From: an uncultured Clostridia bacterium
GTDB lineage: Bacteria > Bacillota > Clostridia > TANB77 > CAG-508
DNA: 64,000 bases
NCBI GenBank assembly: GCA_944389475.1
Contig: CALXMM010000002.1
Span: forward strand, 19,483-83,482
Direction: 5' to 3'
The position numbers and the translations under genes were made by a program. Below the pieces are notes generated by a model, which was given only the letters and a program-made list of their open reading frames with translations, searched no databases and had not been told where the DNA came from. Below, piece after piece: positions 1 to 19,753 of this stretch (positions are counted from its first letter, which is position 1; each line of letters begins with the position of its first letter).

Positions 1-2
1 TA

Positions 3-1526: not shown

Positions 1527-1538
1527 CCCTGCAATATA

Positions 1539-1568
1539 AAAGAACCACACGTAAGTGTGGTTCTTTTA
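1539..1568 (+). terminator. Rho-independent terminator
   Basis: The hairpin gaaccacac-gtaa-gtgtggttc is followed by TTTTAT. Confidence 0.6.
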
Positions 1569-1669
1569 TGCTTATATTTAAAATATTATGATATAACTTG
1601 CTGATTTTCAATTTTATTTTCCACTTTCATTTTTATAATTAATTACAATAAAAGTAATATAAATCACTT

Positions 1670-4045: not shown

Positions 4046-4107
4046 TAGTTTTCCTTCTTTCTTTAAAATATACTTAACATTTGTATATAGCTTATGACAA
4101 AAACTTG

Positions 4108-4548
4108 TTACTCAAAATTTTTTGTCATAATAATTGCATTATCTCTATGTTTATAATATTTTTTTCTGAAGCCAACTTTTTTAAAACCATATTTTAAGTA
4201 CAAATTAATTGCAGGTAAATTGTTTTCATTTACTTCTAAGGTAATAGCTTTAAAATTTTCACTTTTAGCTGTTTGTATTAGTTTTGCTAATAATTTACTA
4301 CCAATACCTGATTTTCTGTTTGTCTTTTTTACAACAATATCTGTAATATGTACATCATCTACAGATTTCCAAATTCCTGCGAAACCTAAAATATTATTAT
4401 CCATTTTGGCAACAAAATATTCTGAATTGGGATTATTCAATTCATCTTCTAAGATATCATATGTCCAAAAATCATCAAATTCATCTTTTAAAGTATCTTT
4501 TAGTAAAAATAAATCTGACTCTGTCATATTATATATTTCTAAATTCAT
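4108..4548 (-). CDS. rimI: Ribosomal-protein-alanine N-acetyltransferase (GNAT)
   Basis: It is a 146-aa GNAT-fold protein sitting directly downstream of tsaB in the canonical tsaE-tsaB-rimI arrangement. Confidence 0.75.
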   Translation of the reverse strand: MNLEIYNMTESDLFLLKDTLKDEFDDFWTYDILEDELNNPNSEYFVAKMDNNILGFAGIWKSVDDVHITDIVVKKTNRKSGIGSKLLAKLIQTAKSENFKAITLEVNENNLPAINLYLKYGFKKVGFRKKYYKHRDNAIIMTKNFE

Positions 4549-4549
4549 A

Positions 4550-5260
4550 TTAATTATCCTTTAATTTTTTTTCTAATTCTATTTCAGCACTGGATTTTTT
4601 TAAGTATAAAGGTGAAAGAGATAATTCTTCTTTTGAATTACAATTAAAGTGTTTATAAATTGCAGCTTTAGCAATTGACTTAGCACTTGAATTGTTTTCT
4701 TCATCTGTTGCTAAAGTACAATTATTAAAATTACTTTTTATTAAATTAGCAAATAATTTACTACCAGAGCCTACGAAAACAATTTTGTTACTAGAATATT
4801 TTTTTATAATATCTAAAACATTATTTATATTATCGGACATATATTTATTTATTAAAGTATAATGATTTTCATCATATTCAAATAATCCAGCATAAACATT
4901 GTCATTTTTAGCATCTATAATTGAGCATACCAAATTTCCATTTAATGGAGCAATATTATATGCCAAGCCTTCTAAGGAAGAAATACCTATAGCAGGTTTA
5001 TTATAAAAATCTCTAAAGGCACAAATAGTTGCAACACCTATTCTAATACCAGTAAAAGACCCAGGTCCTTTAGAACAAGCATATAAATCTATATCTGATA
5101 AATTAAAATCAAGACTATCAAAAGCTTTTTTTATCATAGGCATTAAATTTTCAGAATGAGTTAATTTATCTGATATAAAATCTTCATATAATATTTTTTC
5201 ATCATCCAAAATTGCAATGCTACAAATATTACTAGATGTATCTATACTTAATGTTTTCAT
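4550..5260 (-). CDS. tsaB: tRNA threonylcarbamoyladenosine biosynthesis protein TsaB (YeaZ)
   Basis: The N-terminus MKTLSIDTSSNICSIAILDD is typical of YeaZ, and the gene lies between tsaE and rimI. Confidence 0.85.
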   Translation of the reverse strand: MKTLSIDTSSNICSIAILDDEKILYEDFISDKLTHSENLMPMIKKAFDSLDFNLSDIDLYACSKGPGSFTGIRIGVATICAFRDFYNKPAIGISSLEGLAYNIAPLNGNLVCSIIDAKNDNVYAGLFEYDENHYTLINKYMSDNINNVLDIIKKYSSNKIVFVGSGSKLFANLIKSNFNNCTLATDEENNSSAKSIAKAAIYKHFNCNSKEELSLSPLYLKKSSAEIELEKKLKDN

Positions 5261-5327
5261 TTTTACACTTCCTATCTCTATAAATGAATAGATTATCTCT
5301 CGATATCTTTATTTTATATAATTTGAC

Positions 5328-5783
5328 TTAAAGATTTATGTCACAATTTAATTTATAATTGCCAAAACACTCTAAATCTAAAATACGAATATTAGAATCT
5401 TCAAAATCTCTTGAAAAAGAAACTTTTAGATATGATTTTGGTAATAGCTCTTCTATTTTTTCACCCCATTCAATTATGCAAATTCCGTTGGAAAAATACT
5501 CATCTCCACCAATTGCATAAAATTCATCAATATCTTCTAATCTGTAAACATCAAAATGATAAATAGGAAAATCGGGAGTATCATACTCATTTACTATCGT
5601 AAATGTAGGACTTGATAGTTCATCTTGTAAATTAAAATACTCAAGAAAACCTTCTGTAAATTTAGTTTTCCCAGAACCAAGTTCTCCACTTAAAACTATA
5701 ATATCTCCTTTTTTTGAATTAGAAGCTAACTTTTTGGCGAATTTTTTTGTTTCATCTTCAGAATGTGAAATAAATCTTGTCAT
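5328..5783 (-). CDS. tsaE: tRNA threonylcarbamoyladenosine biosynthesis ATPase TsaE (YjeE)
   Basis: It carries the P-loop GELGSGKT, is 151 aa, and is followed by tsaB. Confidence 0.85.
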   Translation of the reverse strand: MTRFISHSEDETKKFAKKLASNSKKGDIIVLSGELGSGKTKFTEGFLEYFNLQDELSSPTFTIVNEYDTPDFPIYHFDVYRLEDIDEFYAIGGDEYFSNGICIIEWGEKIEELLPKSYLKVSFSRDFEDSNIRILDLECFGNYKLNCDINL

Positions 5784-5810
5784 AATTTTTCTCCTTAAAA
5801 TTTTAGTTTA

Positions 5811-5963
5811 CACATATATCTGTGATTGCAAAATCAAAAGATTTTGACCACAGCTTAGTTCCACATATAGCTGTGGACGCAAAATCAAAAGATTTTGACC
5901 ACAGCTTAGTTCCACATATATCTGTGATTGCAAAATCAAAAGATTTTGACCACAGCTTAATTA
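5811..5963. repeat. Three tandem 51-bp direct repeats, each containing an imperfect palindrome (ctgtgattgcaaaatc-aaaa-gattttgaccacag)
   Basis: This is read directly from the sequence. Copies 1 and 3 are identical and copy 2 has four substitutions. The array lies in the divergent tsaE/ylmH intergenic region. Confidence 0.9.
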
Positions 5964-6076
5964 TATAAGAAAGAAAAAGGTTTGTAAAGAAAATCAAAGG
6001 CTAAATATATGGAAATTTGTAGAAAAATGTGTTAATATGTAAATATTGTATAAGACATATATTATAGGAGAAATTT

Positions 6077-6913
6077 ATGAATAAAAAAGATTTAATAGAA
6101 GGTTATAAGAAAGAAGAACAAATGCTTATTTCTAAAATGTTGGATAAAGTAGAAGAAACAAAACAGAAAAACAAAATTACTAATACTGATTTTTTGGATG
6201 AGTATCAAATGAAAATTTGCCATGATGTATTAAATAAAATTAAATATGAAAATTACATTCCTTTTGGAGGATATGAAGGAGCAGAAAGAAAGATTTTAAT
6301 TTTTTATCCGGAAAAATTAAAGTTTATAGTGAATAACTGTGTAGATGATAATCATATCTTAATAAAAAATGACAAAACTTTTTTAGATAAATTATGTGCA
6401 ATTAGAATTAGAGTTCCAAACGAATTACATGAAAAATATGTACATAAAAATTATTTGGGAATGGTAATGAAATTAGGCGTGGTAAGAGAAAAAGTAGGAG
6501 ACATCTTGGTGCAAGATATTGGTGCAGATATTATTATCCTACCAGAAATAGCTAAATATTTAATAAATAGTTTGGGGCAATTAATAAGATTAAAAAAAGC
6601 TGATATAAAAGAAATTGAAATTAATCAAGTAGAAAAAGTAGAGTCAAAAACTAAAGAATATCAGATTGTTGTAGCAGCTTTAAGATTGGATAATGTAATT
6701 GCAGAACTTGCAAGAACCTCAAGAGTGCAAGCAAAGGAAATTATTCTACAAGAAAGAGTATTTATAAATTTTAAAAATGAAACAAAATTAACAAAACAAA
6801 TAAATGAAAAAGATATAATAACTATAAGAGGAAGAGGAAGATTTAGAATACTAGAAATTATTGGAAATACTCAAAAAGGAAGGTACATAATAAAAGTAGA
6901 AAAATATGTATAA
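6077..6913 (+). CDS. ylmH: YlmH-like RNA-binding protein with a C-terminal S4 domain
   Basis: The segment FLDEYQ...GGYEGAERKILIFYPE aligns with B. subtilis YlmH. The C-terminal S4 domain reads LRLDNVIAELARTSRVQAKEII. Confidence 0.6.
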   Translation: MNKKDLIEGYKKEEQMLISKMLDKVEETKQKNKITNTDFLDEYQMKICHDVLNKIKYENYIPFGGYEGAERKILIFYPEKLKFIVNNCVDDNHILIKNDKTFLDKLCAIRIRVPNELHEKYVHKNYLGMVMKLGVVREKVGDILVQDIGADIIILPEIAKYLINSLGQLIRLKKADIKEIEINQVEKVESKTKEYQIVVAALRLDNVIAELARTSRVQAKEIILQERVFINFKNETKLTKQINEKDIITIRGRGRFRILEIIGNTQKGRYIIKVEKYV

Positions 6914-7006
6914 AATCTAAATATTTAAGAAAGAATACTTGAAAAGTATTCTTTTTTGTTATAGAATGACTTTGATCAAAAATAGGTCAAATTTTTGTAT
7001 GCCTGA

Positions 7007-8050
<1,044 letters not shown>

Positions 8051-8060
8051 TGATTAAAAT

Positions 8061-8095
8061 TTTAGAGGTTGCTTTTATAAGTAACCTCTAAAAGT
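8061..8095 (+). other. Intergenic gap-pgk hairpin (attenuator or processing structure)
   Basis: An 8-bp inverted repeat, tagaggtt...aacctcta, sits 10 nt after the gap stop codon. Confidence 0.4.
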
Positions 8096-8255
8096 CTTAA
8101 TTATCTTAAAAGAGTAAGCAAAATAATTGTAAAGGTTATATATGTGCCTTTGTATTTTAAAATTTTAAGACATATATATAGCCTTTACAATTAAGCCACT
8201 TCCGTTAGAGTGGACTATAGCTGGGCTTACCAAGTGAAGAAAAGGAGTGAAATGT

Positions 8256-9440
8256 ATGGATAAAAAAACTGTTAGAGATATAGACTTAAAAGGCAAAAAA
8301 GTAATTGAGAGATGTGATTTTAATGTACCATTATTGGATGATGGAACAATAAGGGACAACACAAGAATCGTTGCAGCATTACCAACAATAAAATATTTAT
8401 TAGAACAAAATTGTTCAATAATTTTATGCTCTCACTTAGGAAGACCAAAGGGACAAGTTGTGCCAGAATTATCAATGGCACCAGTAGCAAAAGAATTAAC
8501 TAGATTATTAGGACAAGAAGTTAAACTTGCAAAAGATGTAGTTGGTGAAGATGCTATGAGATTAGCATCAGAATTAAAACCAGGTGAAGTAATGTTACTA
8601 GAAAATGTAAGATTCGAACCAGGAGAAGAAAAAAATGACCCAGAACTTGCTGAGAAATTTGCAAGTATGGCAGAAGTATTTGTAAATGATGCTTTTGGTA
8701 CAGCACATAGAGCACATGCTTCTACAGCAGGAATTGCTGATTATTTACCTGCAGTAGCAGGATTCTTAATCGAAAAAGAATTAAAATTCTTAGGAGATGC
8801 TATAAATAATCCAAAGAGACCATTTGTTGCTATTTTAGGTGGAAAGAAAGTTTCAGATAAAATAGGAGTAATAGATAGTTTATTAGAAAAAGTAGATACA
8901 TTAATGATTGGTGGAGCTATGGCTTATACATTCTTTAAATCAATGGGATATTCAGTAGGAAATTCTATATGCGAAGAAGATAAGTTAGATTTAGCACAAA
9001 GCTTAATTGAAAAAGCAAAAAATAAAGGTGTTAAATTAATGCTACCAGTAGATACAAGAGTTGGAAAAGAAGTAAGTGAAGATACAGAAAGTAAAGTAGT
9101 AAGTTATAAAGAAATCCCAGATGGTTGGGAAGGACTAGATATAGGTTCAGAAACTATAAAAATGTATACAGATGAATTAAGAAAAGCAGCAACAGTATTA
9201 TGGAATGGACCAGTAGGAATATTCGAAATAGAACAATTTGCAGTTGGTACAAATGAAATAGCAAAAACTTTATCAGAAATAGACGCTGTTACAGTAATTG
9301 GAGGAGGAGATTCTGCAGCTGCTGTTAAGAAAGCAGGATTAGCTGATAAAATGACACATATTTCTACAGGTGGTGGAGCTTCTCTAGAATTCATAGAAGG
9401 AAAGAAATTACCAGGAATAGAGTGTTTAATGGATAAATAA
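8256..9440 (+). CDS. pgk: Phosphoglycerate kinase
   Basis: It begins [16 protein letters not shown]...CDFNVPL. An AAGGAG RBS lies 8 nt upstream of the ATG at 8256. Confidence 0.95.
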
Positions 9441-9528
9441 GCTACTTCTCAAATCTTTTATTTGGAAAGCAGGCTATAGTTGGCAAAGCCAACTCCTTTA
9501 AAACAATAGAAACGAAGGGAGAAATACT

Positions 9529-10281
9529 ATGAGAAAAAAAGTAATTGCTGGTAATTGGAAAATGAATATGCTTCCAAATGAAGCCATATCATGTATAGAT
9601 GAATTATCAAAATTAGTTAAAGATACTAAAAATGAAGTTATTTTATGCGTTCCATATACAGATTTATTTTATGCATTATTAACAGCACAAAATACAAATA
9701 TAAAAATTGGAGCACAAAATATGCATTTCGAAGAAAGAGGAGCATATACAGGAGAAATATCTGGACCAATGCTAAAATCAATAGGTGTTGAATATGTTAT
9801 TATAGGGCACTCTGAAAGAAGACAATATTTTGCAGAAACAGATGAAACGGTAAATAAAAAAGTAAAAGCCGCTCATAAATATGGCTTAAAGCCAATTGTA
9901 TGTGTTGGTGAAACATTAGAGCAAAAAGAAACAGGAAAAACTGTAGAAATAATAACAAATCAAACAAGATTAGCTCTAGATGGTTTAAACAAAGAACAAG
10001 TAGAAGGAACTATAATAGCATACGAACCAATTTGGGCAATTGGAACAGGAAAGACAGCAACATCAGAAGATGCTAATAACTCTATAAAAGAAATAAGAAA
10101 AGAGATAGCAAAAAATTATGGACAGGAAACAGCTGATAGAGTTATAATACAATATGGTGGAAGCGTTAAATCTAGCAATGCAAAAGAACTATTTACTACA
10201 TCAGATATAGATGGAGGATTAGTTGGAGGAGCAAGTTTAAAAGCTGATGAATTCGCTAAAATCGTAAATTTTGATAAATAA
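9529..10281 (+). CDS. tpiA: Triosephosphate isomerase
   Basis: It has VIAGNWKMN, IIGHSERR and AYEPIWAIGTGKTAT. Confidence 0.95.
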   Translation: MRKKVIAGNWKMNMLPNEAISCIDELSKLVKDTKNEVILCVPYTDLFYALLTAQNTNIKIGAQNMHFEERGAYTGEISGPMLKSIGVEYVIIGHSERRQYFAETDETVNKKVKAAHKYGLKPIVCVGETLEQKETGKTVEIITNQTRLALDGLNKEQVEGTIIAYEPIWAIGTGKTATSEDANNSIKEIRKEIAKNYGQETADRVIIQYGGSVKSSNAKELFTTSDIDGGLVGGASLKADEFAKIVNFDK

Positions 10282-10298
10282 GGATGGTAACTGAAATG

Positions 10299-11828
10299 AA
10301 AGATAAGCTAACGATGCTAATGATATTGGATGGATTTGGAGAAAACAGCAAATCAGAAGGAAATGCTGTTAAGCTTGCAAATACACCTAATATAGATAGA
10401 CTAATGAAAATATGGCCAACAACAGATATTCATGCAAGTGAATTAAGTGTAGGTCTTCCAGAAGGTCAAATGGGAAATTCAGAGGTAGGACACACAAATA
10501 TTGGTGCTGGTAGGATAGTTTATCAAGAATTAACTAAAATTACAAAATCAATAGAAGATGGAGATTTCTTTTCTATACCAGAATTAGTAGAAGCAATAGA
10601 AAATTGTAAAAAGAATCATTCTAAGTTACATGTTCTAGGTCTTGTATCAGATGGAGGAGTTCATGGTCATATTCGTCATTTGTTTGCAGTTCTAGAACTT
10701 GCAAAAAGAAAAGATTTCGAAGATGTTTATGTACATTGCTTTACAGATGGTAGAGATACACCACCTGCTTCAGGAGAAGGATATATAGCTAAACTAGAAG
10801 AAAAGATGAAGGAAAAAGGTGTAGGTAAAATTGCCACAATTTCAGGAAGATTTTATGCAATGGACAGGGATAAAAGATGGAACAGAGTTCAAAAAGCATA
10901 TGATGCAATGGTAAAAGGAGAAGGAATTAAAGCAACTAGTGCAATTGCAGCAGTAGAAAGTTCTTACCAAAAAGAAGTTTTTGATGAGTTTATCGAACCA
11001 ACAGTTATTTGTAATGGGGAAACACCTATTGCAACAATAGAAGATGGTGATTCTGTTATTTGCTTTAACTTTAGACCTGATAGAGCAAGAGAAATAACTA
11101 GAGCATTAGTAGATCCAGACTTTAATGAATTTGAAACAAAGAAAATGAATTTAGATTATGTATGCTTTACACAATATGATGCAACAATGCCAAATGTAAA
11201 AATTGCTTTTAAACCAGAAAGATTAGTAAATACATTTGGAGAATATGTAAGCAAAAAAGGTTTAAAACAATTAAGAATAGCAGAAACAGAAAAATATGCA
11301 CATGTAACATTTTTCTTTAATGGTGGAGAAGAAAAACAATATCCAGGAGAAGATAGAATTTTAGTACCTTCTCCAAAGGTAGAAACATATGATATGAAAC
11401 CAGAAATGAGTGCTATAGAGGTTACAGATAAAGTTGTTGATGCAATTAATTCTAAAAAATATGATACTATTATTTTGAATTATGCAAATCCAGACATGGT
11501 TGGACATACAGGAAATCTAGAAGCAGCTATTAAAGCAATAGAAACAATAGATACTTGTGTAAAAAGAGTAGTGGATGCAGTAGAAGCACAAGATGGAGTA
11601 GTAATTATTACAGCTGACCATGGAAATGCGGAACAAATGATAGATTATAAAACAGGTGAACCACATACAGCTCATACAACTAATTTAGTTCCTCTAATAC
11701 TAGTAGGAATGAAAGATGTAAAACTAAAAGAAGGTAAACTTGCAGATTTAGCACCAACAATGTTAGAAATTATGGGACTAGATAAACCAGCTGAAATGAC
11801 AGGAGAAAGTTTAATAGTAAAAGAATAA
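10299..11828 (+). CDS. gpmI: 2,3-bisphosphoglycerate-independent phosphoglycerate mutase
   Basis: It has LMILDGFG and ITADHGNAE. The start may instead be at 10284. Confidence 0.93.
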   Translation, partial: KDKLTMLMILDGFGENSKSEGNAVKLANTPNIDRLMKIWPTTDIHASELSVGLPEGQMGNSEVGHTNIGAGRIVYQELTKITKSIEDGDFFSIPELVEAIENCKKNHSKLHVLGLVSDGGVHGHIRHLFAVLELAKRKDFEDVYVHCFTDGRDTPPASGEGYIAKLEEKMKEKGVGKIATISGRFYAMDRDKRWNRVQKAYDAMVKGEGIKATSAIAAVESSYQKEVFDEFIEPTVICNGETPIATIEDGDSVICFNFRPDRAREITRALVDPDFNEFETKKMNLDYVCFTQYDATMPNVKIAFKPERLVNTFGEYVSKKGLKQLRIAETEKYAHVTFFFNGGEEKQYPGEDRILVPSPKVETYDMKPEMSAIEVTDKVVDAINSKKYDTIILNYANPDMVGHTGNLEAAIKAIETIDTCVKRVVDAVEAQDGVVIITADHGNAEQMIDYKTGEPHTAHTTNLVPLILVGMKDVKLKEGKLADLAPTMLEIMGLDKPAEMTGESLIVKE

Positions 11829-11861
11829 TTAAATTAATACTTATATGGGGGGAAAAATAAA

Positions 11862-12593
11862 GTGTCGACTTCGACTAGGATGAAAGAACTATATAAAGAC
11901 ATACAACATAGTCTATTTGACATGATACCAGAAAAATGGAATAAAATATTTTTGTATGCATCTGTAATTGATGGAAGAAATAATTTAGAAACTGGAGAAA
12001 TGTACTTTTATTATATTCCAAAAGGAATATTAAAAAGAGAGCCGGTAAATGTGTATGAAGTTCCAAATAAATTTAATTTGGATGAAAATGCATATTTTAA
12101 ATTGGCAGACAATTTGTATGGAATTATAAAAAAATTAAGAAAAGAATATATTTCTGTGAATGGGGCTTTATGGAGTTATGTTATTATTTCTATAGAAGAT
12201 TTTATGTTTCGAGTAGAATATAACTTCGAAAATTTAGCAAGCTCCCCATATAGTAATTATGATAGACATTTAGTTTTTAGATATAAATATTTAAAAACAG
12301 GTTTAAATGCATATAGCAAAAGAGAAAGACAAATGGTTTTAGATTATTTGAACCAAGAAGAAAAATCTGATAAAAAAGTAGATGTATATGAGGAATCATT
12401 ATATGCTACACCAAATAAAAACCTAGTTAATTTTGAAAAAGATGCACCAACAAAATCTAGAAGAGAAGAAAAGATGGAAGAAATATACGAACTGGAAAAA
12501 GATAGTGAGTTTTGGCCACACGATAAGAAATATATAATCGTAGAAAGCAAACCAAAAAATAAAAATCAAATTATAGATACTAATAAAGATTGA
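11862..12593 (+). CDS. DUF600/YezG-like (immunity-protein-like) domain protein with a charged C-terminal extension of about 90 aa
   Basis: The pattern IPEKW-KIFLY...YFYYIPKG...NG-LW...YKYL matches what I recall of the DUF600/YezG family. No adjacent LXG or YeeF toxin is present. Confidence 0.45.
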   Translation: MSTSTRMKELYKDIQHSLFDMIPEKWNKIFLYASVIDGRNNLETGEMYFYYIPKGILKREPVNVYEVPNKFNLDENAYFKLADNLYGIIKKLRKEYISVNGALWSYVIISIEDFMFRVEYNFENLASSPYSNYDRHLVFRYKYLKTGLNAYSKRERQMVLDYLNQEEKSDKKVDVYEESLYATPNKNLVNFEKDAPTKSRREEKMEEIYELEKDSEFWPHDKKYIIVESKPKNKNQIIDTNKD

Positions 12594-12607
12594 AAGGAGA
12601 AATAAAA

Positions 12608-13300
12608 ATGACATATTCAAAGGAATTAGAAGATATGTGCACGGTAGCAAAAGGAGTAAACCATGGACCAGCACCAATACCAGAAGAAGGAAAATGGGTA
12701 AAAGCAAAAGAAATAAAAGATATATCAGGTTTAACACATGGTATTGGTTGGTGTGCACCACAACAAGGAGCTTGTAAATTAACATTAAATGTAAAAGATG
12801 GAATTATTCAAGAAGCTTTAATCGAAACTATAGGATGTTCAGGAATGACACATTCAGCTGCTATGGCAGGCGAAATTTTAACAGGAAAAACAATATTGGA
12901 AGCTTTAAATACAGACTTAGTATGTGATGCAATAAATACTGCTATGAGAGAATTATTCCTACAAATAGTATATGGAAGAACACAAACAGCTTTCTCAGAA
13001 GGTGGACTTCCAGTAGGTTCTGGACTTGAAGATTTAGGAAAAGGACATACATCACAAGTTGGAACAATATATTCTAGTACATTAAAAGGACCAAGATATC
13101 TACAATTAACAGAAGGATACATAGTTGAATTAGGATTGGATAAAGATGACCAAATAATTGGTTATAAATATGTACATATGGGAAAAATGATGGATTACAT
13201 AAAAAGTGGAATGGATCCAATGAAAGCAATAGAAAAAGCATCAGGAACTTATGGAAGATTTGATGAAGCTGTTAAAACAATAGACCCAAGAGAAAAATAA
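12608..13300 (+). CDS. IscU/NifU-like putative Fe-S scaffold-like protein with an extra C-terminal region of about 100 aa
   Basis: The segment GWCAPQQGACKLTLNVKDGIIQEALIETIGCSGMTHSAAMAGEILTGKTILEAL parallels the IscU cysteine pattern. An AAAGGAG RBS lies 8 nt upstream of the ATG at 12608. Confidence 0.55.
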   Translation: MTYSKELEDMCTVAKGVNHGPAPIPEEGKWVKAKEIKDISGLTHGIGWCAPQQGACKLTLNVKDGIIQEALIETIGCSGMTHSAAMAGEILTGKTILEALNTDLVCDAINTAMRELFLQIVYGRTQTAFSEGGLPVGSGLEDLGKGHTSQVGTIYSSTLKGPRYLQLTEGYIVELGLDKDDQIIGYKYVHMGKMMDYIKSGMDPMKAIEKASGTYGRFDEAVKTIDPREK

Positions 13301-13351
13301 AATGATAGAAATTTATATTAAAAATGAGACTTAAGATAAGAAGGTAAAAAA

Positions 13352-13768
13352 ATGAATATTTATTTTTCAGGTTCAATATATGGTGGTAGACAAAAACTTG
13401 AAGCGTACAAAAAATTAATAAATGAACTAAAAAAATACGGAAATGTTTTGGATGAAGAAGTTGGCGATAATGATGTAATAGCAAATGAAAAATATACTTC
13501 AGATAATGATATTTTCGAAAATTTAGTAAAGAAAATTGATATAGCAGATTTAGTTTTTGCAGAAGTTACAGTACCATCATTAGGTGTTGGATATGAAATA
13601 GGTTATGCAGATAGTCATAATAAAAAAATAATATGTGTTTATGATAAAAACATAACGCCAAAAATTACAACTATGTTAAGAGGTAATAGTAGATTAAAAA
13701 TTATTCCATATATAGATTTAAATGAGATTATAAATAATTTGGAAAATATATTAAAGGAGGAAGATTAA
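13352..13768 (+). CDS. 2'-deoxynucleoside 5'-phosphate N-hydrolase (DNPH1/RCL) / nucleoside 2-deoxyribosyltransferase-family protein
   Basis: IYFSGSIYGGRQ...YGNVLDEEV and LVFAEVTVPSLGVGYEIGYA closely match the DNPH1 motifs IYFCGSIRGGRED and VVVAEVTQPSLGVGYELG. Confidence 0.7.
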   Translation: MNIYFSGSIYGGRQKLEAYKKLINELKKYGNVLDEEVGDNDVIANEKYTSDNDIFENLVKKIDIADLVFAEVTVPSLGVGYEIGYADSHNKKIICVYDKNITPKITTMLRGNSRLKIIPYIDLNEIINNLENILKEED

Positions 13769-14773
13769 ATGGCAGTAACATTCGAGAGCTATGAAAGAAG
13801 AATAGACCAAATCAAACCAGTAATGGAAAAATACGGAATAAAAGATTTTGAAGATGCATTAAAAATATGTACGGACAAAGGATTTAATCCATATGAAATC
13901 GTAAAGGGAGTTCAACCAATTTGTTTTGAAAACGCTTGTTGGGCGTACACATTAGGTGCTGCAATAGCAATAAAAAAAGGATGTACTAAAGCAGCAGATG
14001 CTGCAAAGGCAATAGGTGAAGGATTACAAGCTTTTTGTATACCAGGTTCAGTTGCTGATGATAGAAAAGTAGGATTGGGACATGGTAATTTAGCATCTAT
14101 GCTACTTTCTGAAGATACAAAATGCTTTGCATTTTTAGCTGGACATGAAAGCTTTGCAGCAGCAGAAGGAGCAATTGGTATTGCAAATTCAGCAAACAAA
14201 GTAAGAAAAACACCTCTAAGAGTTATTTTAAATGGTCTTGGAAAAGATGCAGCACAAATAATTTCTAGAGTAAATGGATTTACATATGTTAAAACAGATT
14301 TTGACTTTTTCAACAGCAAAGTAAATGTAGTAGAAGAAATTCCATATTCAAATGGAGAAAGAGCAAAAGTTAGATGTTATGGAGCAAATGATGTTAGAGA
14401 AGGTGTAGCTATAATGTGGTTAGAAGATGTTGATGTATCTATTACAGGTAACTCAACAAACCCAACTAGATTCCAACATCCAGTTGCAGGAACATACAAA
14501 AAAGAAAGATTAGCTGCAGGTAAAAAATATTTCTCTGTTGCTTCAGGAGGAGGAACAGGAAGAACATTACATCCAGATAACATGGCAGCAGGACCAGCTT
14601 CTTATGGTATGACAGATACAATGGGAAGAATGCACTCAGATGCACAATTTGCAGGAAGTTCATCTGTTCCAGCTCACGTTGAAATGATGGGATTAATAGG
14701 AATGGGTAACAACCCAATGGTTGGAGCTTCTGTAGCAGTTGCAGTTGCAGTAGAAGAGGCTATGAAAGCGTAA
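13769..14773 (+). CDS. GGGtGRT-family protein of uncharacterised function
   Basis: It contains the eponymous motif ASGGGTGRTLHPDNMAAGPASYGMTD. It starts 1 nt after the stop of the DNPH1-like gene, and its RBS (AAGGAGG) lies inside that gene's 3' end. Confidence 0.65.
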   Translation: MAVTFESYERRIDQIKPVMEKYGIKDFEDALKICTDKGFNPYEIVKGVQPICFENACWAYTLGAAIAIKKGCTKAADAAKAIGEGLQAFCIPGSVADDRKVGLGHGNLASMLLSEDTKCFAFLAGHESFAAAEGAIGIANSANKVRKTPLRVILNGLGKDAAQIISRVNGFTYVKTDFDFFNSKVNVVEEIPYSNGERAKVRCYGANDVREGVAIMWLEDVDVSITGNSTNPTRFQHPVAGTYKKERLAAGKKYFSVASGGGTGRTLHPDNMAAGPASYGMTDTMGRMHSDAQFAGSSSVPAHVEMMGLIGMGNNPMVGASVAVAVAVEEAMKA

Positions 14774-14935
14774 GATATGATAAATGTAATAATATAATAA
14801 TTAGCTGTTTTTGGTGAAATACTTTAAGAAGATTTATGAAAGGACTTCTAATAATATTAGAGGTTCTTTTATTATGTGGAAAAATCAAAGATTTTGGATA
14901 CATAATAAAAATAATTGTTTTAAATAAAATAAAAA

Positions 14936-14946
14936 TGTGTTATAAT
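14936..14946 (+). promoter_or_regulatory. Extended -10 promoter element (TGTGTTATAAT) upstream of the small ORF
   Basis: The motif is seen in the sequence, about 30 nt upstream of the ORF start. Confidence 0.4.
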
Positions 14947-14978
14947 AATTAAGTCCAATAATAAAGTAGAAAGGATGG

Positions 14979-15320
14979 TTGTCACACATGGAATCTAAAC
15001 TTATAATTAAGCGGTGTGATGATCTTGGACATGTTTATGTTTTCGAAATTATGGGCTATTGTCCAACACTTCTTGAAGTAGAATTCGAAAGAATGGCAGG
15101 TCGATTGGTTTCTGGTGATTGCTCTAATTTAGAAGGTGAATTGAAGGATTTCTGTAAATTCCAACGAAGAAATAATGGAATTAGGATTGACTTTCAAATC
15201 TTCGAATCGCCATACTCATTGGATGTAAATAACATTCATATGAATGAAAAAGGGCATACCACTAGAATAATTATTCGAGTGCGAAGGAGTATTATAAGGA
15301 TACTCAAAGAGCACCTTTAG
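14979..15320 (+). CDS. Small hypothetical protein (113 aa; start possibly the ATG at 14988)
   Basis: It has its own promoter and terminator, codon usage slightly GC-richer than the neighbouring genes, and cysteines. I recognise no family. Confidence 0.4.
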   Translation: MSHMESKLIIKRCDDLGHVYVFEIMGYCPTLLEVEFERMAGRLVSGDCSNLEGELKDFCKFQRRNNGIRIDFQIFESPYSLDVNNIHMNEKGHTTRIIIRVRRSIIRILKEHL

Positions 15321-15328
15321 CTAAAAAG

Positions 15329-15375
15329 TAGACAGAATACACTATCTTTTGGATAGATATTCTGTCTATTTTTTC
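15329..15375 (+). terminator. Rho-independent terminator
   Basis: The stem agacagaata...tattctgtct is followed by ATTTTTTC. Confidence 0.7.
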
Positions 15376-15467
15376 TTTAGTGGGATATATTTTCAAATAA
15401 TTGGTAATAATAATATAAATGGAGGTATAGTAAAAAGCGTTTTTATTGTACCTTAAAAGGGAAATGA

Positions 15468-16754
<1,287 letters not shown>

Positions 16755-16782
16755 GATATTTAGAAACTAAACTAAGAGTAGA

Positions 16783-16820
16783 GTCATTTTATTAATGGCT
16801 CTATTTACTTTTGTCGAAAA
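16783..16820 (+). terminator. Rho-independent terminator after eno
   Basis: An imperfect 10-bp stem, tagagtcatt/aatggctcta, is followed by a T-rich run. Confidence 0.5.
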
Positions 16821-16852
16821 TTGATATATTATACCCACAAGGAGGGGATGAT

Positions 16853-18871
16853 ATGAAAAATAAAAAAGTAATTGTTGGAATAATAATTGCAATAATATTA
16901 ATAGCAATAATTGCAGTAGTAATATTTTTTATTCTAAACAATAAAGGAAACCCAGAAGTAGCTTTAAAAGATTATTTCACAAAAATAAGTGAAAAAAATT
17001 ACGAAGAAGCATACAATTATTTAAGCAATTCAAGTAAAGACAAAATAGCAAAAGATACATTTGTAGACAAAAACAAATCAATATATAGTGGAATAGATAT
17101 GGCAGATTTAACTACAGATATTACAAATGTAGAAAAATCAAATGATGGAGAAAAAATTACATACACGCAAAAAATGAATAGTTCAGCAGGAGAAATTAGT
17201 TTTACAAACACAGCAACACTTGTAAAAGAGGATAAGGAATATAAACTTAATTGGTCAAATAGCATAATATATCCTGACTTAGGAGAAAATGATAAGGTAA
17301 GAGTAAAAACATTATCAGCAGAACGTGGAAATATTTATGATAGAAATAACACTCTTCTTGCTGGAAAGGGCAACATTTCATCAATTGGATTAGTTCCAGG
17401 AAAAATGAGCGAGAATAAAGATGAGGATATTCAAAAATTATCTACAATATTAGGAGTTTCAGTTGATTCTATAAATAATAAATTAGGCATGTCATATGTA
17501 AAAGATGATACTTTTGTGCCTATAAAAAATGTAACAACAACAGAAACGGATTTAAAAAATCAAGCTTTAACAATTCCAGGTGTAAAAATTACAACAGAAA
17601 GCTCTAGAGTATATCCTTTAGGAAGGGAAGCCTCACAAGTTTTAGGCTATGTTCAGGCAATAAGCGCAGAAGAACTAGAAGCCAATACTGGAAAAGGATA
17701 TAATAGCAATAGTGTAATTGGTAAGGCAGGAATAGAAAAAGCATACGAGGACACTTTAAGAGCTAAAGATGGAAAAGAAATATATATAGAAAATGAAAAT
17801 GGCGACAAAGTAAAAACAATAGCCAAAAAGGATATGGAAAATGGAAAAGATGTTAAATTAACAATAGATGCTAATACACAAAAACAAGTATATGACAGCT
17901 TAGAAGGAAATAAAGGTGTATATGTTGCTATGGATTCAAAAACAGGAGAGATTTTAGCATTAGTAAGTACACCTTCATATGATTCAAACGATTTTGTCCT
18001 AGGAATGAGTAATGATGAATGGAACTCATTAAATCAAGATGCAAACAAACCATTATTAAATAGATTCACACAAACTTGGTCACCAGGTTCAACATTCAAG
18101 CCAGTTACAGGTTCAATAGGAATAACAACAGGAAAGGTAGACCCTAATGAAGACTTTGGAAGAAGCGGACTTAGTTGGCAAAAAGATTCAAGCTGGGGAA
18201 ATTATATGGTTACAACTTTAACACCTTATAATGAATCTGCAAATATGCAAAATGCATTAATAAGGTCAGATAATATTTATTTTGCAAAAGCAGCATTAAA
18301 AATTGGTGCTAAAAGTTTCATGGAAGGACTTGATAAATTAGGATTTAATGAAGATATAAAATTTGAGCTTTCTTTAAACAAATCAACATATGATACAGAT
18401 GGAAAAATTGATGATGAGGTGCAACTTGCAGATAGTGGATATGGTCAAGGTCAAATACAAGTTAATCCAGTACATATGACATCAATCTATTCTGCTTTTG
18501 TAAATAACGGAAATATGATAAAACCTACTCTAATATATGAAGAAAATAAACAACCGGAAATTTTAAAAGAAAATGCAATATCAGAAGAGGCTGCAAATAC
18601 AATAAAAGAGGATTTAGTACAAGTTGTAGAAAATCCAAATGGAACAGCACATAATGCAAAAATTGATGGAGTAAGAATTGGAGCAAAAACAGGAACAGCA
18701 GAATTAAAAGCAAGTAAAGATGAAGAAGGAGAAGTCTTAGGATGGTTTAATGCCTTTACAGCTGATGAAAATGCAGAAAAACAATTAGTTGTAGTAAGTA
18801 TGATAGAAGATGCAAATTCAGTGGGCGGAAGTCATTATTTATTCCCTAAAGTAACACAATTATTTAAATAA
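16853..18871 (+). CDS. Class B penicillin-binding transpeptidase with an N-terminal membrane anchor and an NTF2/MecA_N-like domain
   Basis: It has the SxxK motif (STFKP), the SxN motif (SDN) and KTGT. An AGGAGG RBS precedes the ATG at 16853. Confidence 0.85.
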   Translation: MKNKKVIVGIIIAIILIAIIAVVIFFILNNKGNPEVALKDYFTKISEKNYEEAYNYLSNSSKDKIAKDTFVDKNKSIYSGIDMADLTTDITNVEKSNDGEKITYTQKMNSSAGEISFTNTATLVKEDKEYKLNWSNSIIYPDLGENDKVRVKTLSAERGNIYDRNNTLLAGKGNISSIGLVPGKMSENKDEDIQKLSTILGVSVDSINNKLGMSYVKDDTFVPIKNVTTTETDLKNQALTIPGVKITTESSRVYPLGREASQVLGYVQAISAEELEANTGKGYNSNSVIGKAGIEKAYEDTLRAKDGKEIYIENENGDKVKTIAKKDMENGKDVKLTIDANTQKQVYDSLEGNKGVYVAMDSKTGEILALVSTPSYDSNDFVLGMSNDEWNSLNQDANKPLLNRFTQTWSPGSTFKPVTGSIGITTGKVDPNEDFGRSGLSWQKDSSWGNYMVTTLTPYNESANMQNALIRSDNIYFAKAALKIGAKSFMEGLDKLGFNEDIKFELSLNKSTYDTDGKIDDEVQLADSGYGQGQIQVNPVHMTSIYSAFVNNGNMIKPTLIYEENKQPEILKENAISEEAANTIKEDLVQVVENPNGTAHNAKIDGVRIGAKTGTAELKASKDEEGEVLGWFNAFTADENAEKQLVVVSMIEDANSVGGSHYLFPKVTQLFK

Positions 18872-19679: not shown

Positions 19680-19753
19680 TCGGGTATGGCCAAGCGGTAA
19701 GGCAGTAGGCTCTGACCCTACGATCGTTAGTTCGAATCTAACTACCCGAACCA
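19680..19753 (+). tRNA. tRNA-Gln (anticodon CUG)
   Basis: It folds as a cloverleaf by hand: acceptor tcgggta/tacccga, D-arm gcc-aagcggtaa-ggc, anticodon stem gtagg/cctac with loop cuCUGac, T-arm gttag-ttcgaat-ctaac, and an encoded CCA. It resembles B. subtilis tRNA-Gln. Confidence 0.85.

What the first reader, a model, noticed from the sequence alone, without database searches (positions are those of the whole stretch)
11862..15375. A 3.5-kb accessory insertion splits the otherwise contiguous gap-pgk-tpiA-gpmI-eno operon
In low-GC Firmicutes the five glycolytic genes are normally adjacent. Here five unrelated ORFs lie between gpmI (ends 11828) and eno (starts 15486), all on the glycolytic strand. 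They are the DUF600-like gene, the IscU-like/DNPH1-like/GGGtGRT trio, and a small ORF with its own promoter and terminator. The insert is bounded by hairpin terminators at about 14841-14873 and 15329-15375. It would therefore be co-transcribed with, or would interrupt, a very highly expressed operon. This is an unusual place for cargo and may help it hitch onto a strong promoter.
Basis: partly seen in the sequence, partly recalled or inferred. Interest (0 to 1): 0.6.

Follow-up and report, generated by a model that had tools for sequence, protein, structure and literature searches.

The report
Old add-on genes inside glycolytic operon
Five non-glycolytic genes do sit between gpmI and eno in this gut Clostridia genome, but they are mostly old, vertically inherited residents of the operon in this whole bacterial clade, not one recent piece of foreign cargo; the most useful by-product is a hint that the abundant, uncharacterised NifU-like/GGGtGRT protein pair is connected to glycolysis.

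Summary
Between gpmI (ends 11828) and eno (starts 15486) lie a YezG/EsaG-family gene, a NifU-like gene, a DNPH1-like gene, a GGGtGRT gene and a 110-aa orphan ORF, all on the + strand, and both hairpins are real. The reading as a single accessory insertion does not hold. In 80 related species, the YezG-like gene follows gpmI in 64 of 78. The NifU-like/GGGtGRT pair follows in about half. Direct gpmI-eno adjacency occurs in only 8 of 53. Parsimony places both the YezG-like gene and the pair at the root of the clade. Their divergence tracks GpmI (Mantel r 0.49, 0/2000 permutations). Pair codon usage matches the glycolytic genes. No repeats, integrase or tRNA site flank the region. The DNPH1-like gene sits in a variable slot inside the pair, most likely from one old insertion followed by losses. 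The small ORF is a fast-evolving, locus-linked gene with its own conserved promoter and terminator. No terminator lies between pgk and GGGtGRT, so those genes are probably co-transcribed. Two structurally conserved terminators then insulate eno, which has its own invariant 47-nt upstream element. Outside this clade the pair is never next to glycolytic genes. A Bacteroides transposon screen did hit the pair together with pfkA.

The parts
6939..6967 (+). Promoter-like site (TTGAAA-17-TAGAAT) upstream of gap; candidate start of the glycolytic transcript
   Evidence: Consensus scan, 10 of 12 matches. The intergenic region 6914-7036 is invariant in 9 strains. Inferred, not mapped.
7037..11828 (+). 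gap (7037-8050), hairpin 8060-8093, pgk (8256-9440), tpi (9529-10281), gpmI (10296-11828)
   Evidence: ORFs, Pfam for gpmI, gene calls with Pfam in conspecific assemblies, hairpin dG -19.1 and z -6.4.
11862..12593 (+). YezG/EsaG-family (DUF600) protein, 243 aa, with a K/E-rich C-terminal extension. It starts 33 nt after gpmI behind a GGGGGG Shine-Dalgarno. No toxin gene is adjacent, so it is an orphan.
   Evidence: PF04634 E 2.7e-23; EsaG 8guo E 4e-5; present after gpmI in 64 of 78 relatives; root state present with 6 losses; dN/dS 0.066 against L001; average codon usage.
12608..13300 (+). NifU/IscU-like 230-aa protein, the obligate upstream partner of GGGtGRT
   Evidence: NifU_N E 1.8e-4; IscU/NifU structures E 4e-4 to 0.05. 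A 230-aa gene precedes GGGtGRT in every context sampled. 82-98% identical across the clade. Codon score above all 43 background genes.
13352..13768 (+). DNPH1/Rcl-like 2'-deoxynucleoside 5'-phosphate N-hydrolase homologue, 138 aa, occupying the variable slot inside the pair. Its last codons carry the Shine-Dalgarno of GGGtGRT.
   Evidence: PF05014 E 3e-12; Rcl/DNPH1 E ~6e-20 with YFxGSIxGGR, PSLGVGYE and MxRG motifs kept. Found only in WIN, L001, L006, L059 and L080. Divergence scales with GpmI. dN/dS 0.126.
13769..14773 (+). GGGtGRT protein (PF14057), 334 aa, function unknown, extremely conserved
   Evidence: E 6e-197. 83-98% identical in the clade, ~89% to Bacilli MAGs, 68-80% to Vibrio, Bacteroidota and Actinomycetota. 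dN/dS 0.032. Glycolysis-like codon usage. No solved relative by sequence or fold.
14836..14879 (+). Intrinsic terminator (17-bp stem plus UUUUAUUAU) ending the gpmI...GGGtGRT block
   Evidence: dG -16.9, z -5.3. A hairpin at the same position with a different sequence occurs in L001 (z -4.5) and L091 (z -3.4) and in L025.
14919..14946 (+). Promoter of the small ORF (TTTAAA-16-TATAAT with an upstream TG)
   Evidence: Scan. The TATAAT is invariant in WIN, L001 and L091 although the flanks are scrambled.
14988..15320 (+). Orphan 110-aa protein, fast-evolving, always between GGGtGRT and eno
   Evidence: Only 3 true relatives among 1.84e9 representatives. L001 copy 55% identical, L091 copy 32%, in the same position. 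dN/dS 0.33, dS 1.13. GC3 0.286 against 0.143, codon z -2.6. AF2 pLDDT 62, unusable.
15323..15379 (+). Intrinsic terminator of the small ORF (A-tract, 17+6-bp stem, UUUUUUCUUU)
   Evidence: dG -23.6, z -6.2. Structurally conserved with different sequences in L001 (dG -33.1, z -7.1) and L091 (dG -25.4, z -7.2).
15382..15428 (+). Invariant 47-nt element upstream of eno. It holds TTCAAA-N16-TATAAA hexamers and the ancestral GGAGG, and positions 15388-15401 pair perfectly with eno codons 3-7 (15493-15506).
   Evidence: Alignment of WIN, L001 and L091; inverted repeat I7; 0 of 200 shuffles reach it and it is absent from the other 17 relatives tested; invariant in 9 strains. A promoter role is inferred.
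15486..16754 (+). eno (422 aa), followed by hairpin 16776-16806
   Evidence: Pfam Enolase_N and Enolase_C; gene calls; hairpin dG -15.0, z -4.2.

Best explanation
The gpmI-eno interval is a layered and mostly ancestral extension of the glycolytic operon in this clade of small, AT-rich, uncultured gut Clostridia (the Clostridium sp. CAG:508 / CAG:575 / Candidatus Merdicola group). It is not a recently acquired island.

Layer 1: a YezG/EsaG-family gene fixed directly behind gpmI in the common ancestor of the 80 sampled species.
Layer 2: the portable two-gene NifU-like -> GGGtGRT module, also present at this spot in that ancestor, then lost or moved about a dozen times.
Layer 3: a DNPH1-like gene placed in the spacer inside the pair in one sub-lineage and then repeatedly lost. 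Relatives hold an MNT/HEPN toxin-antitoxin pair or another small gene in the same slot.
Layer 4: a fast-evolving 110-aa orphan gene with its own promoter and terminator in the GGGtGRT-eno spacer of the window's immediate lineage.

How it works (inferred from sequence): no terminator lies between pgk and GGGtGRT (a U-tract-less hairpin follows gap), and the four insert genes are joined by gaps of 0-51 nt. They are therefore probably read from the same transcript as pgk-tpi-gpmI, which ends at the terminator at 14836-14879. The small ORF is a monocistronic unit. eno lies behind two terminators and is expressed from, or controlled by, its own invariant 47-nt upstream element. The window's species keeps the fullest version of an architecture that relatives have trimmed in different ways. 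In some relatives the trimming restored gpmI-eno adjacency secondarily.
For: Distribution in 80 species at 75-97% GpmI identity: YezG-like after gpmI in 64 of 78; the pair in 32 of 61; direct gpmI-eno in 8 of 53; all five genes only in WIN and L001.

Parsimony on a GpmI+Tpi+Pgk tree: YezG-like is present at the root with 6 losses. The pair is present at the root with 12-13 changes.

Vertical descent: NifU+GGGtGRT distances correlate with GpmI+Tpi distances (Mantel r 0.485, 0 of 2000 permutations). YezG-like against GpmI gives Pearson 0.73. DNPH1-like identity scales with GpmI identity and all copies share the same junction design.

Native character: dN/dS is 0.03-0.13 for the four genes. NifU-like and GGGtGRT score above all 43 background genes for glycolysis-like codon usage. 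There are no flanking repeats and no nearby tRNA. GGGtGRT occurs on only 10 of 72,556 plasmid records, all large and non-mobilizable. There are no defence or phage family hits.

Transcription signals: there is no hairpin at the gpmI/yezG junction. Terminators after GGGtGRT and after the small ORF are structurally conserved with divergent sequences in L001 and L091. The small-ORF -10 box is invariant. The 47-nt element upstream of eno is invariant.

Other support: the small ORF is locus-linked in L091. The operon is permissive in general. Relatives carry NUDIX, guanylate-kinase-like, IspH, Uma2 and DUF1653 genes between glycolytic genes, and MNT/HEPN genes in the slot inside the pair. The arrangement is fixed in at least 8 independent assemblies.
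Against: The tree is neighbour-joining on three proteins, midpoint-rooted, with no outgroup and no bootstrap, so the root states could shift. The number of changes does not depend on the root.

About a dozen independent losses of a protein pair this conserved is a lot. I could not check whether species lacking the pair here keep it elsewhere in the genome, which would mean translocation. The alternative, repeated homologous exchange between relatives, is not excluded.

No deletion scars were visible in sister taxa.

All transcription claims rest on sequence motifs; no RNA data were available. The promoter reading of the 47-nt block is awkward in L001 and L091, where the -10-like hexamer lies only about 3 nt from the Shine-Dalgarno.

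The small ORF's atypical composition and high dS would also fit allele replacement from outside the lineage.
Confidence: 0.75

Rival explanations
1. One reading: a single 3.5-kb block of accessory cargo was recently inserted, horizontally, into a contiguous gap-pgk-tpiA-gpmI-eno operon and exploits its strong promoter.
For: The canonical operon is contiguous in C. difficile and B. subtilis. The exact five-gene set occurs only in WIN and L001. The small ORF is compositionally atypical.
Against: The parts have different phyletic distributions and ages. They co-diverge with GpmI. The pair uses native, high-expression codons. No repeats, tRNA, integrase or plasmid/phage links were found. Nucleotide identity to L001 is as high inside the insert as in the flanks, except around the small ORF.
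Confidence: 0.04
2. Functional coupling: the NifU-like/GGGtGRT pair sits in the glycolytic operon because it acts in or on lower glycolysis or sugar-phosphate homeostasis, for example as an Fe-S-dependent enzyme or metabolite sensor. Selection for co-regulation, not hitch-hiking, would then have kept it there.
For: It is embedded between gpmI and eno in 41 species. Its codon usage matches the glycolytic genes. It is more conserved than GpmI itself, with mean distances of 0.07-0.10 against 0.20. In B. thetaiotaomicron, transposon hits in BT0173-4 (GGGtGRT + NifU) came out of the same screen as pfkA for loss of glucose-dependent Cur silencing, with a 2-fold effect (bioRxiv 10.64898/2026.04.10.717545). 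It is highly expressed in vivo in many gut and rumen anaerobes and shifts with feeding together with GAPDH, PEPCK and PPDK (PMC11204068, PMC7035244).
Against: Outside this clade, none of seven sampled contexts is glycolytic: fab genes, pilins, the suf operon, redox genes, tRNA synthetase. About half the clade has removed the pair from this position. The B. thetaiotaomicron effect is modest and those mutants grew normally on glucose. Iron regulation (PMC10434189, PMC5395762) fits a general Fe-S or redox role equally well. The fold search gave no informative match.
Confidence: 0.2
3. Anchored orphan immunity: the YezG/EsaG-family gene is a stand-alone immunity protein against nuclease toxins delivered by competing Firmicutes. 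It persists behind gpmI because an essential, constitutive operon guarantees its expression and makes deletion costly.
For: Family membership. It is a single copy with no adjacent toxin in the window or in 80 relatives. It diverges fast between species (mean distance 0.52 against 0.20 for GpmI) yet is strongly constrained within the lineage (dN/dS 0.066). The gpmI-yezG junction is the most stable junction in the region, with a median gap of about 13 nt.
Against: No toxin partner or type VII secretion genes were looked for genome-wide; only 64 kb was available. Single-copy, clade-wide vertical conservation is unlike the tandem, variable immunity arrays typical of EsaG and YezG. The score is below the TIGR01741 cut-off (51.6 against 82.05). 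The long C-terminal extension is not a family feature, so a co-opted function is possible.
Confidence: 0.35
4. Neutral packing: in these reduced, strongly strand-biased genomes, any short spacer in a long co-directional array accepts small genes. The glycolytic operon is one such array, and the placement has no adaptive meaning.
For: 43 of 53 ORFs in the window are on one strand. Relatives carry many unrelated small genes at several glycolytic junctions. Content downstream of yezG turns over often.
Against: The YezG-like gene and the pair persist at the same junction across deep divergence, with strong purifying selection and, for the pair, high-expression codon usage. The terminators and the element upstream of eno are conserved, which suggests a tuned architecture.
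Confidence: 0.25

Closest known systems
Central glycolytic gapA operon of Firmicutes (B. subtilis cggR-gapA-pgk-tpiA-pgm-eno; C. difficile gapA-pgk-tpi-gpmI-eno, CD3174-CD3170)
   Same: Same five enzymes in the same order on the same strand, with a hairpin after gap and probably one long transcript through gpmI.
   Different: There is no cggR at the canonical upstream position; a YlmH-like gene sits there. Five extra genes separate gpmI from eno. eno is insulated by two terminators. In many relatives eno is absent from the locus altogether.
NifU-like / GGGtGRT gene pair (e.g. B. thetaiotaomicron BT0174-BT0173; Collinsella and Parabacteroides loci)
   Same: The same two proteins in the same order (NifU-like upstream), tightly linked and extremely conserved. 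Parabacteroides also has a small gene wedged between the two.
   Different: Here, and only in this clade, the pair lies inside a glycolytic operon. In this species the slot inside the pair holds a DNPH1-like gene. The function is unknown everywhere.
EsaG / YezG (DUF600, PF04634) immunity proteins of type VII secretion nuclease toxins (S. aureus EssD-EsaG; B. subtilis YeeF-YezG)
   Same: Clear family-level sequence match over residues 7-146. Orphan copies without a toxin are also known for EsaG (from my own knowledge).
   Different: It is a single copy with no toxin neighbour. It carries a ~95-residue charged C-terminal tail. It is inherited vertically as a fixed member of a housekeeping operon across a whole clade.
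DNPH1 / Rcl 2'-deoxynucleoside 5'-phosphate N-hydrolase (hmdUMP hydrolase)
   Same: E ~6e-20 to the rat and human enzymes, with the catalytic and phosphate-binding motifs retained.
   Different: This is a bacterial homologue in an operon slot between two unrelated genes. Substrate and role were not tested.

Membership tests
Canonical Firmicutes gapA operon | gap-pgk-tpi-gpmI-eno contiguous | tested here: not met
   3,657 bp carrying five genes and two terminators lie between gpmI and eno.
Canonical Firmicutes gapA operon | CggR repressor gene directly upstream of gap | tested here: not met
   The upstream gene is YlmH_RBD/S4. The rest of the window was not searched for cggR.
Genomic island / mobile insertion | Integrase or transposase, flanking direct or inverted repeats, tRNA target | tested here: not met
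   There are no boundary repeats. The nearest tRNA is at 19680. None of the five proteins matches such families.
Genomic island / mobile insertion | Foreign composition and a phylogeny incongruent with the host | tested here: not met
   Four genes are native by codon usage and GC. Mantel r is 0.485 with 0 of 2000 permutations. Only the small ORF deviates (GC3 0.286, dS 1.13).
GGGtGRT protein family (PF14057) | Full-length HMM match containing the GGGTGRT motif | tested here: met
   653.6 bits over profile positions 1-327 of 327. G260-T266 are invariant in the alignment.
GGGtGRT protein family (PF14057) | Preceded by a ~230-aa NifU-like partner | tested here: met
   True in the window and in all seven outside contexts.
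IscU/NifU Fe-S scaffold | Reaches the curated family thresholds | tested here: not met
   NCBIfam scores are 26.7, 22.3 and 17.9 bits against cut-offs of 187.9, 192.4 and 92.5. Pfam NifU_N is only borderline, 22.1 against 22. It is a partial IscU-like domain within a longer protein.
IscU/NifU Fe-S scaffold | Three cluster-ligand cysteines; Fe-S binding | tested here: inconclusive
   Cysteines occur in GACK, GCSG and LVCD contexts (sequence), but only the middle one lies in the aligned stretch. Binding cannot be tested here.
YezG/EsaG immunity proteins | PF04634 domain | tested here: met
   E 2.7e-23, 83.2 bits against a cut-off of 21.7; EsaG structure E 4e-5.
YezG/EsaG immunity proteins | Adjacent cognate LXG/EssD-type toxin, or a tandem paralogue array | tested here: not met
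   The neighbours are gpmI and nifU-like. It is a single copy in the window and in 80 relatives. TIGR01741 scores 51.6 against 82.05.
YezG/EsaG immunity proteins | Neutralises a nuclease toxin | not testable with these tools
   Needs binding or rescue assays.
DNPH1/Rcl | Sequence family and catalytic motifs (Tyr in YFxGS, Asp, Glu in GYE, the PSLG serine) | tested here: met
   PF05014 E 3e-12. The alignment to 2klh and 8rpt shows the motifs conserved.
Intrinsic (Rho-independent) terminators | Stable hairpin plus U-tract, conserved in relatives | tested here: met
   z is -5.3 and -6.2 in the window. Hairpins occur at the same positions with different sequences in L001 and L091. Termination efficiency was not measured.

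The most novel reading that the evidence does not exclude
The NifU-like/GGGtGRT pair is among the most conserved and most highly expressed uncharacterised protein pairs of anaerobic bacteria. The novel reading is that it is functionally tied to lower glycolysis or sugar-phosphate sensing. Under that reading, this clade reveals the link by hard-wiring the pair between gpmI and eno, which would agree with the B. thetaiotaomicron screen in which BT0173-4 insertions behaved like a weak pfkA mutant.
Probability: 0.2. Interest if true: 0.75.

Novelty: new variant of a known kind. Interest (0 to 1): 0.4.

Why it matters
The split operon itself is ordinary operon evolution. It is a known operon with a lineage-specific, layered set of passenger genes, and the genome is not carrying new mobile cargo here. 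Three points still have some value.

1. Across dozens of species, the uncharacterised GGGtGRT/NifU-like pair keeps company with glycolytic genes. That is independent of, and consistent with, a genetic hit in Bacteroides, and it gives a concrete hypothesis for a protein seen at high abundance in gut and rumen metaproteomes.

2. A toxin-immunity-family protein is a stable, strongly constrained member of a housekeeping operon in a whole clade. That suggests either anchoring of orphan immunity genes or co-option to a new role.

3. The locus shows that apparent canonical gpmI-eno adjacency in some species can be secondary, produced by deletion.

Tried and rejected
- Rfam (E-value mode, 5500-17500) found only chance miRNA-family hits at the palindrome after gap. 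Nothing was found in the insert or upstream of eno.
- PADLOC and PHROGs gave no meaningful hits. The weak TIR-like match of the DNPH1-like protein probably reflects a shared fold class (my own knowledge, not tested here).
- The small-ORF AF2 model had pLDDT 62 and was not searched. Its 636-aa 'relative' P0123 is a cadherin-like repeat protein, a spurious hit.
- I looked for deletion scars or target-site repeats in sister pairs with and without the pair (L037/L065, L025/L064, L032/L022). Nothing was recognisable in the AT-rich spacers.
- The boundary repeat search showed only chance-level short matches.
- The 59-nt window-specific segment upstream of eno is not a repeated element in the window or in the loci.
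- Within-species diversity is uniformly low, and the small ORF is not hypervariable among strains.
- The idea that the DNPH1-like gene spread recently among lineages was rejected, because its divergence scales with GpmI.

Full report
**1. What is there**

The window comes from an AT-rich (about 28% GC), uncultured gut member of the Clostridia. Its nearest relatives are MAGs labelled Clostridium sp. CAG:508, CAG:575 and Candidatus Merdicola.

On the + strand the genes run as follows:
- a YlmH-like gene
- gap, then a hairpin, then pgk, tpi and gpmI (ending at 11828)
- a YezG/EsaG-family gene (11862-12593; PF04634 E 2.7e-23; EsaG structure E 4e-5)
- a NifU/IscU-like gene (true start ATG 12608, 230 aa; NifU_N only borderline)
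- a DNPH1/Rcl-like gene (13352-13768; E ~6e-20 to the rat and human enzymes, catalytic motifs intact)
- a GGGtGRT gene (13769-14773; PF14057 E 6e-197)
- a 110-aa orphan ORF (14988-15320)
- eno (15486-16754)

These assignments rest.

The one at 14836-14872 has dG -16.9 and z -5.3. The one at 15323-15374 has dG -23.6 and z -6.2. Each is followed by a U-tract. The same twelve-gene order with identical spacing occurs in at least eight independent assemblies from different samples, so the arrangement is not an assembly artefact.

Two descriptive points need amending. First, the hairpins do not bound the insert. Both lie at its 3' side, and the 33-nt gpmI/yezG junction has a Shine-Dalgarno and no structure. 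Second, co-orientation is weak evidence here, because 43 of 53 ORFs in the window share that strand.

**2. Is it an insertion?**

I fetched the gpmI neighbourhood of 80 related species (75-97% GpmI identity) and mapped every window gene onto those loci.
- The YezG-like gene lies directly after gpmI in 64 of 78 species with enough sequence, at a median gap of about 13 nt.
- The NifU-like/GGGtGRT pair follows in 32 of 61.
- Direct gpmI-eno adjacency, the canonical state (C. difficile gapA-pgk-tpi-gpmI-eno, PMC3510511), occurs in only 8 of 53.
- The DNPH1-like gene occurs in five genomes from three lineages.
- The small ORF occurs only in the window's immediate lineage.
- All five genes together occur only in this species and its sister L001.

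On a GpmI+Tpi+Pgk neighbour-joining tree, parsimony gives the following. The YezG-like gene is present at the root with six losses. The pair is present at the root with 12-13 changes. The DNPH1-like gene needs either three gains or one gain and eight losses.

Several results favour vertical descent in place:
- NifU-like+GGGtGRT distances correlate with GpmI+Tpi distances (Mantel r 0.485, 0 of 2000 permutations). That is at least as good as Tpi against GpmI.
- The DNPH1-like orthologues share the same junction design, with the GGGtGRT Shine-Dalgarno built into or just after the gene's 3' end. Their identity also scales with GpmI identity. This fits one old insertion followed by losses.
- Window-versus-L001 nucleotide identity is as high inside the insert (88-97%) as in the flanks. 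The exception is 14782-15556.
- dN/dS is 0.066 (YezG-like), 0.042 (NifU-like), 0.126 (DNPH1-like) and 0.032 (GGGtGRT), comparable with the glycolytic enzymes.
- NifU-like and GGGtGRT score above all 43 background genes for glycolysis-like codon usage. YezG-like and DNPH1-like look like average native genes.
- No boundary repeats, no tRNA target, no recombinase, no plasmid or phage association and no defence-family hit were found.

**3. The operon is permissive, with recurrent slots**

Relatives carry other small genes at glycolytic junctions:
- DUF1653 between gap and pgk
- NUDIX, guanylate-kinase-like and IspH genes between pgk and tpi, and Uma2 between pgk and tpi or between tpi and gpmI
- an MNT/HEPN toxin-antitoxin pair, or another small gene, in the same NifU-GGGtGRT slot that holds the DNPH1-like gene here
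- YgjP-like and other genes after GGGtGRT

So the 'trio' is a conserved pair with an interloper. Parabacteroides likewise has a 63-aa gene wedged inside the pair. Downstream of yezG the synteny often breaks. In relatives without the pair, the next genes look by eye like an ABC transporter, guaB/guaA, spoIIIA-like genes and ldh. None is a toxin.

**4. The small ORF**

It has only three true relatives among 1.84 billion representative proteins. One of them, P0124, lies in a contig with the order nifU-like > GGGtGRT (97% identical) > small ORF (32%) > eno (91%).

It is therefore a real gene tied to this position that evolves very fast. Against L001 it has 55% identity, dN/dS 0.33 and dS 1.13, compared with dS 0.3-0.6 in its neighbours. 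Its composition is atypical: GC3 is 0.286 against 0.143 and the codon z-score is -2.6. Its -10 box (TATAAT) is invariant in three genomes. Its terminator is kept as a structure while the sequence changes. Its function is unknown, and the AF2 model was too poor to use.

**5. Likely transcription logic (inferred)**

No terminator separates pgk from GGGtGRT; the hairpin after gap lacks a U-tract. Within the insert the gaps are 33, 14, 51 and 0 nt. This block probably ends at the terminator at 14836-14879, which is conserved as a structure in L001, L091 and L025. The small ORF is monocistronic. eno therefore lies behind two terminators.

Immediately upstream of eno, a 47-nt block (15382-15428) is invariant in the window, L001 and L091, while the surrounding spacer is scrambled. 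It is also invariant among nine strains. It contains TTCAAA-N16-TATAAA and the ancestral GGAGG. Its 5' part pairs perfectly over 14 nt with eno codons 3-7. None of 200 shuffles reaches that length, and the pairing is absent from the 17 other relatives tested.

I read this block as eno's own promoter and/or a 5' regulatory stem. This is inference only. The window alone carries an extra 59 nt, with an inner hairpin and a new Shine-Dalgarno, between the old Shine-Dalgarno and the ATG.

**6. What the parts may do**

The NifU-like -> GGGtGRT module is a portable two-gene unit found across phyla, always in this order. Its conservation is extraordinary: about 89% identity to Bacilli MAGs and 68-80% to Vibrio, Bacteroidota and Actinomycetota. 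It has no solved structural relative.

The literature shows the following:
- It is highly expressed in vivo in many gut and rumen anaerobes (PMC11204068, PMC7035244).
- It is iron-responsive (PMC10434189, PMC5395762).
- In B. thetaiotaomicron, transposon insertions in BT0173-4 were recovered together with pfkA in a screen for loss of glucose-dependent Cur silencing. The effect was 2-fold and growth on glucose was normal (bioRxiv 10.64898/2026.04.10.717545).

Outside this clade none of the seven sampled contexts is glycolytic. The placement here is therefore clade-specific. It is suggestive of a link to glycolysis but does not prove one.

The YezG-like protein is an orphan member of a nuclease-immunity family with an added charged tail. 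It may be an anchored immunity gene or a co-opted protein. The DNPH1-like protein probably has a role in nucleotide sanitation, like several other slot genes in relatives.

**7. Comparison, novelty, verdict**

The closest known system is the Firmicutes gapA operon. This locus is a lineage-specific variant of it. It fails the contiguity feature and lacks cggR at the canonical position. All the passenger genes except the orphan ORF belong to known families. It is not a mobile island.

I rate it a new variant of a known kind, with moderate interest (0.4). The insertion story is mostly explained away. The clade-wide linkage of GGGtGRT/NifU-like to glycolysis, the housekeeping-operon residency of a YezG-family protein, and the insulated eno with its conserved 5' element are worthwhile leads.

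**Main caveats**
- The tree is unrooted in effect (midpoint-rooted neighbour-joining, no outgroup, no bootstrap).
- There were no whole-genome checks for relocated copies.
- There were no RNA data.

Noticed in passing
window 15382-15428 and 15493-15506; L001 15068-15115: An invariant 47-nt block lies upstream of eno. Its 5' part (TATTTTCAAATAAT) is perfectly complementary to eno codons 3-7 and forms a ~15-bp stem that encloses the Shine-Dalgarno and the AUG. It is found only in the three genomes where eno sits behind two terminators. It may be a promoter, a translational operator or an mRNA-stability element.
   Followed up: partly
window 15427-15485: A 59-nt segment unique to this species lies between the ancestral Shine-Dalgarno and the eno start codon. 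It has an inner hairpin (GGTATAGTAAAAAGC / GTTTTTATTGTACC) that pairs with the old Shine-Dalgarno region, and it provides a new Shine-Dalgarno (GAAAGGA). It is not repeated elsewhere and is invariant in 9 strains.
   Followed up: partly
window 5803-5959: A 51-nt tandem repeat of 3.1 copies (90% matches) lies in the divergent intergenic region between a minus-strand gene and the YlmH-like gene. Each unit contains a short palindrome (AAAATC...GATTTT).
   Followed up: no
L002-L080, junctions gap-pgk, pgk-tpi, tpi-gpmI, nifU-GGGtGRT, and after GGGtGRT: Relatives carry many different small genes inside the glycolytic operon: DUF1653, NUDIX, guanylate-kinase-like, IspH/LytB, Uma2 endonuclease-like, an MNT/HEPN toxin-antitoxin pair and a YgjP-like peptidase. 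Several are nucleotide house-cleaning enzymes, which suggests a recurring theme.
   Followed up: partly
L006, L017, L022, L025, L026, L029, L032, L043, L055, L058, L063, L064, L067, L068, L071, L073, L074, L077, L079 (gap position): In about 19 relatives the gap gene at the head of the operon is only 43-46% identical to the window's GAPDH, against 78-85% in the others. This suggests replacement by a divergent paralogue or xenologue at the same position. Pgk likewise falls into a long (about 445-453 aa, ~50% identical) class and a short (394 aa, ~72% identical) class.
   Followed up: no
window 8060-8093 and 8123-8194: A strong hairpin follows gap directly (dG -19.1, z -6.4) but has no U-tract. 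A second palindrome follows it and produced only chance-level Rfam miRNA hits. They could be a processing or stability element like the one in the B. subtilis gapA transcript.
   Followed up: no
window 13769-14773 and relatives: GGGtGRT is more conserved than the glycolytic enzymes around it: mean pairwise distance is 0.07 against 0.20 for GpmI. It is still 68-80% identical in Vibrio, Bacteroidota and Actinomycetota. The AF2 model is confident everywhere except the most conserved stretch (residues 260-312, including the GGGTGRT motif). That would fit a cofactor- or partner-dependent site.
   Followed up: partly
window 21492-23762 (minus strand): Three tRNA-Gly(tcc) genes lie close together, two of them 34 nt apart, downstream of the glycolytic region.
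   Followed up: no
L087 (Collinsella aerofaciens NZ_OY725717.1), 1-7005: In Collinsella the NifU-like/GGGtGRT pair lies just downstream of sufB-sufD-sufS-sufU, separated from it by a transposase gene. That context points to Fe-S metabolism and not to glycolysis.
   Followed up: no
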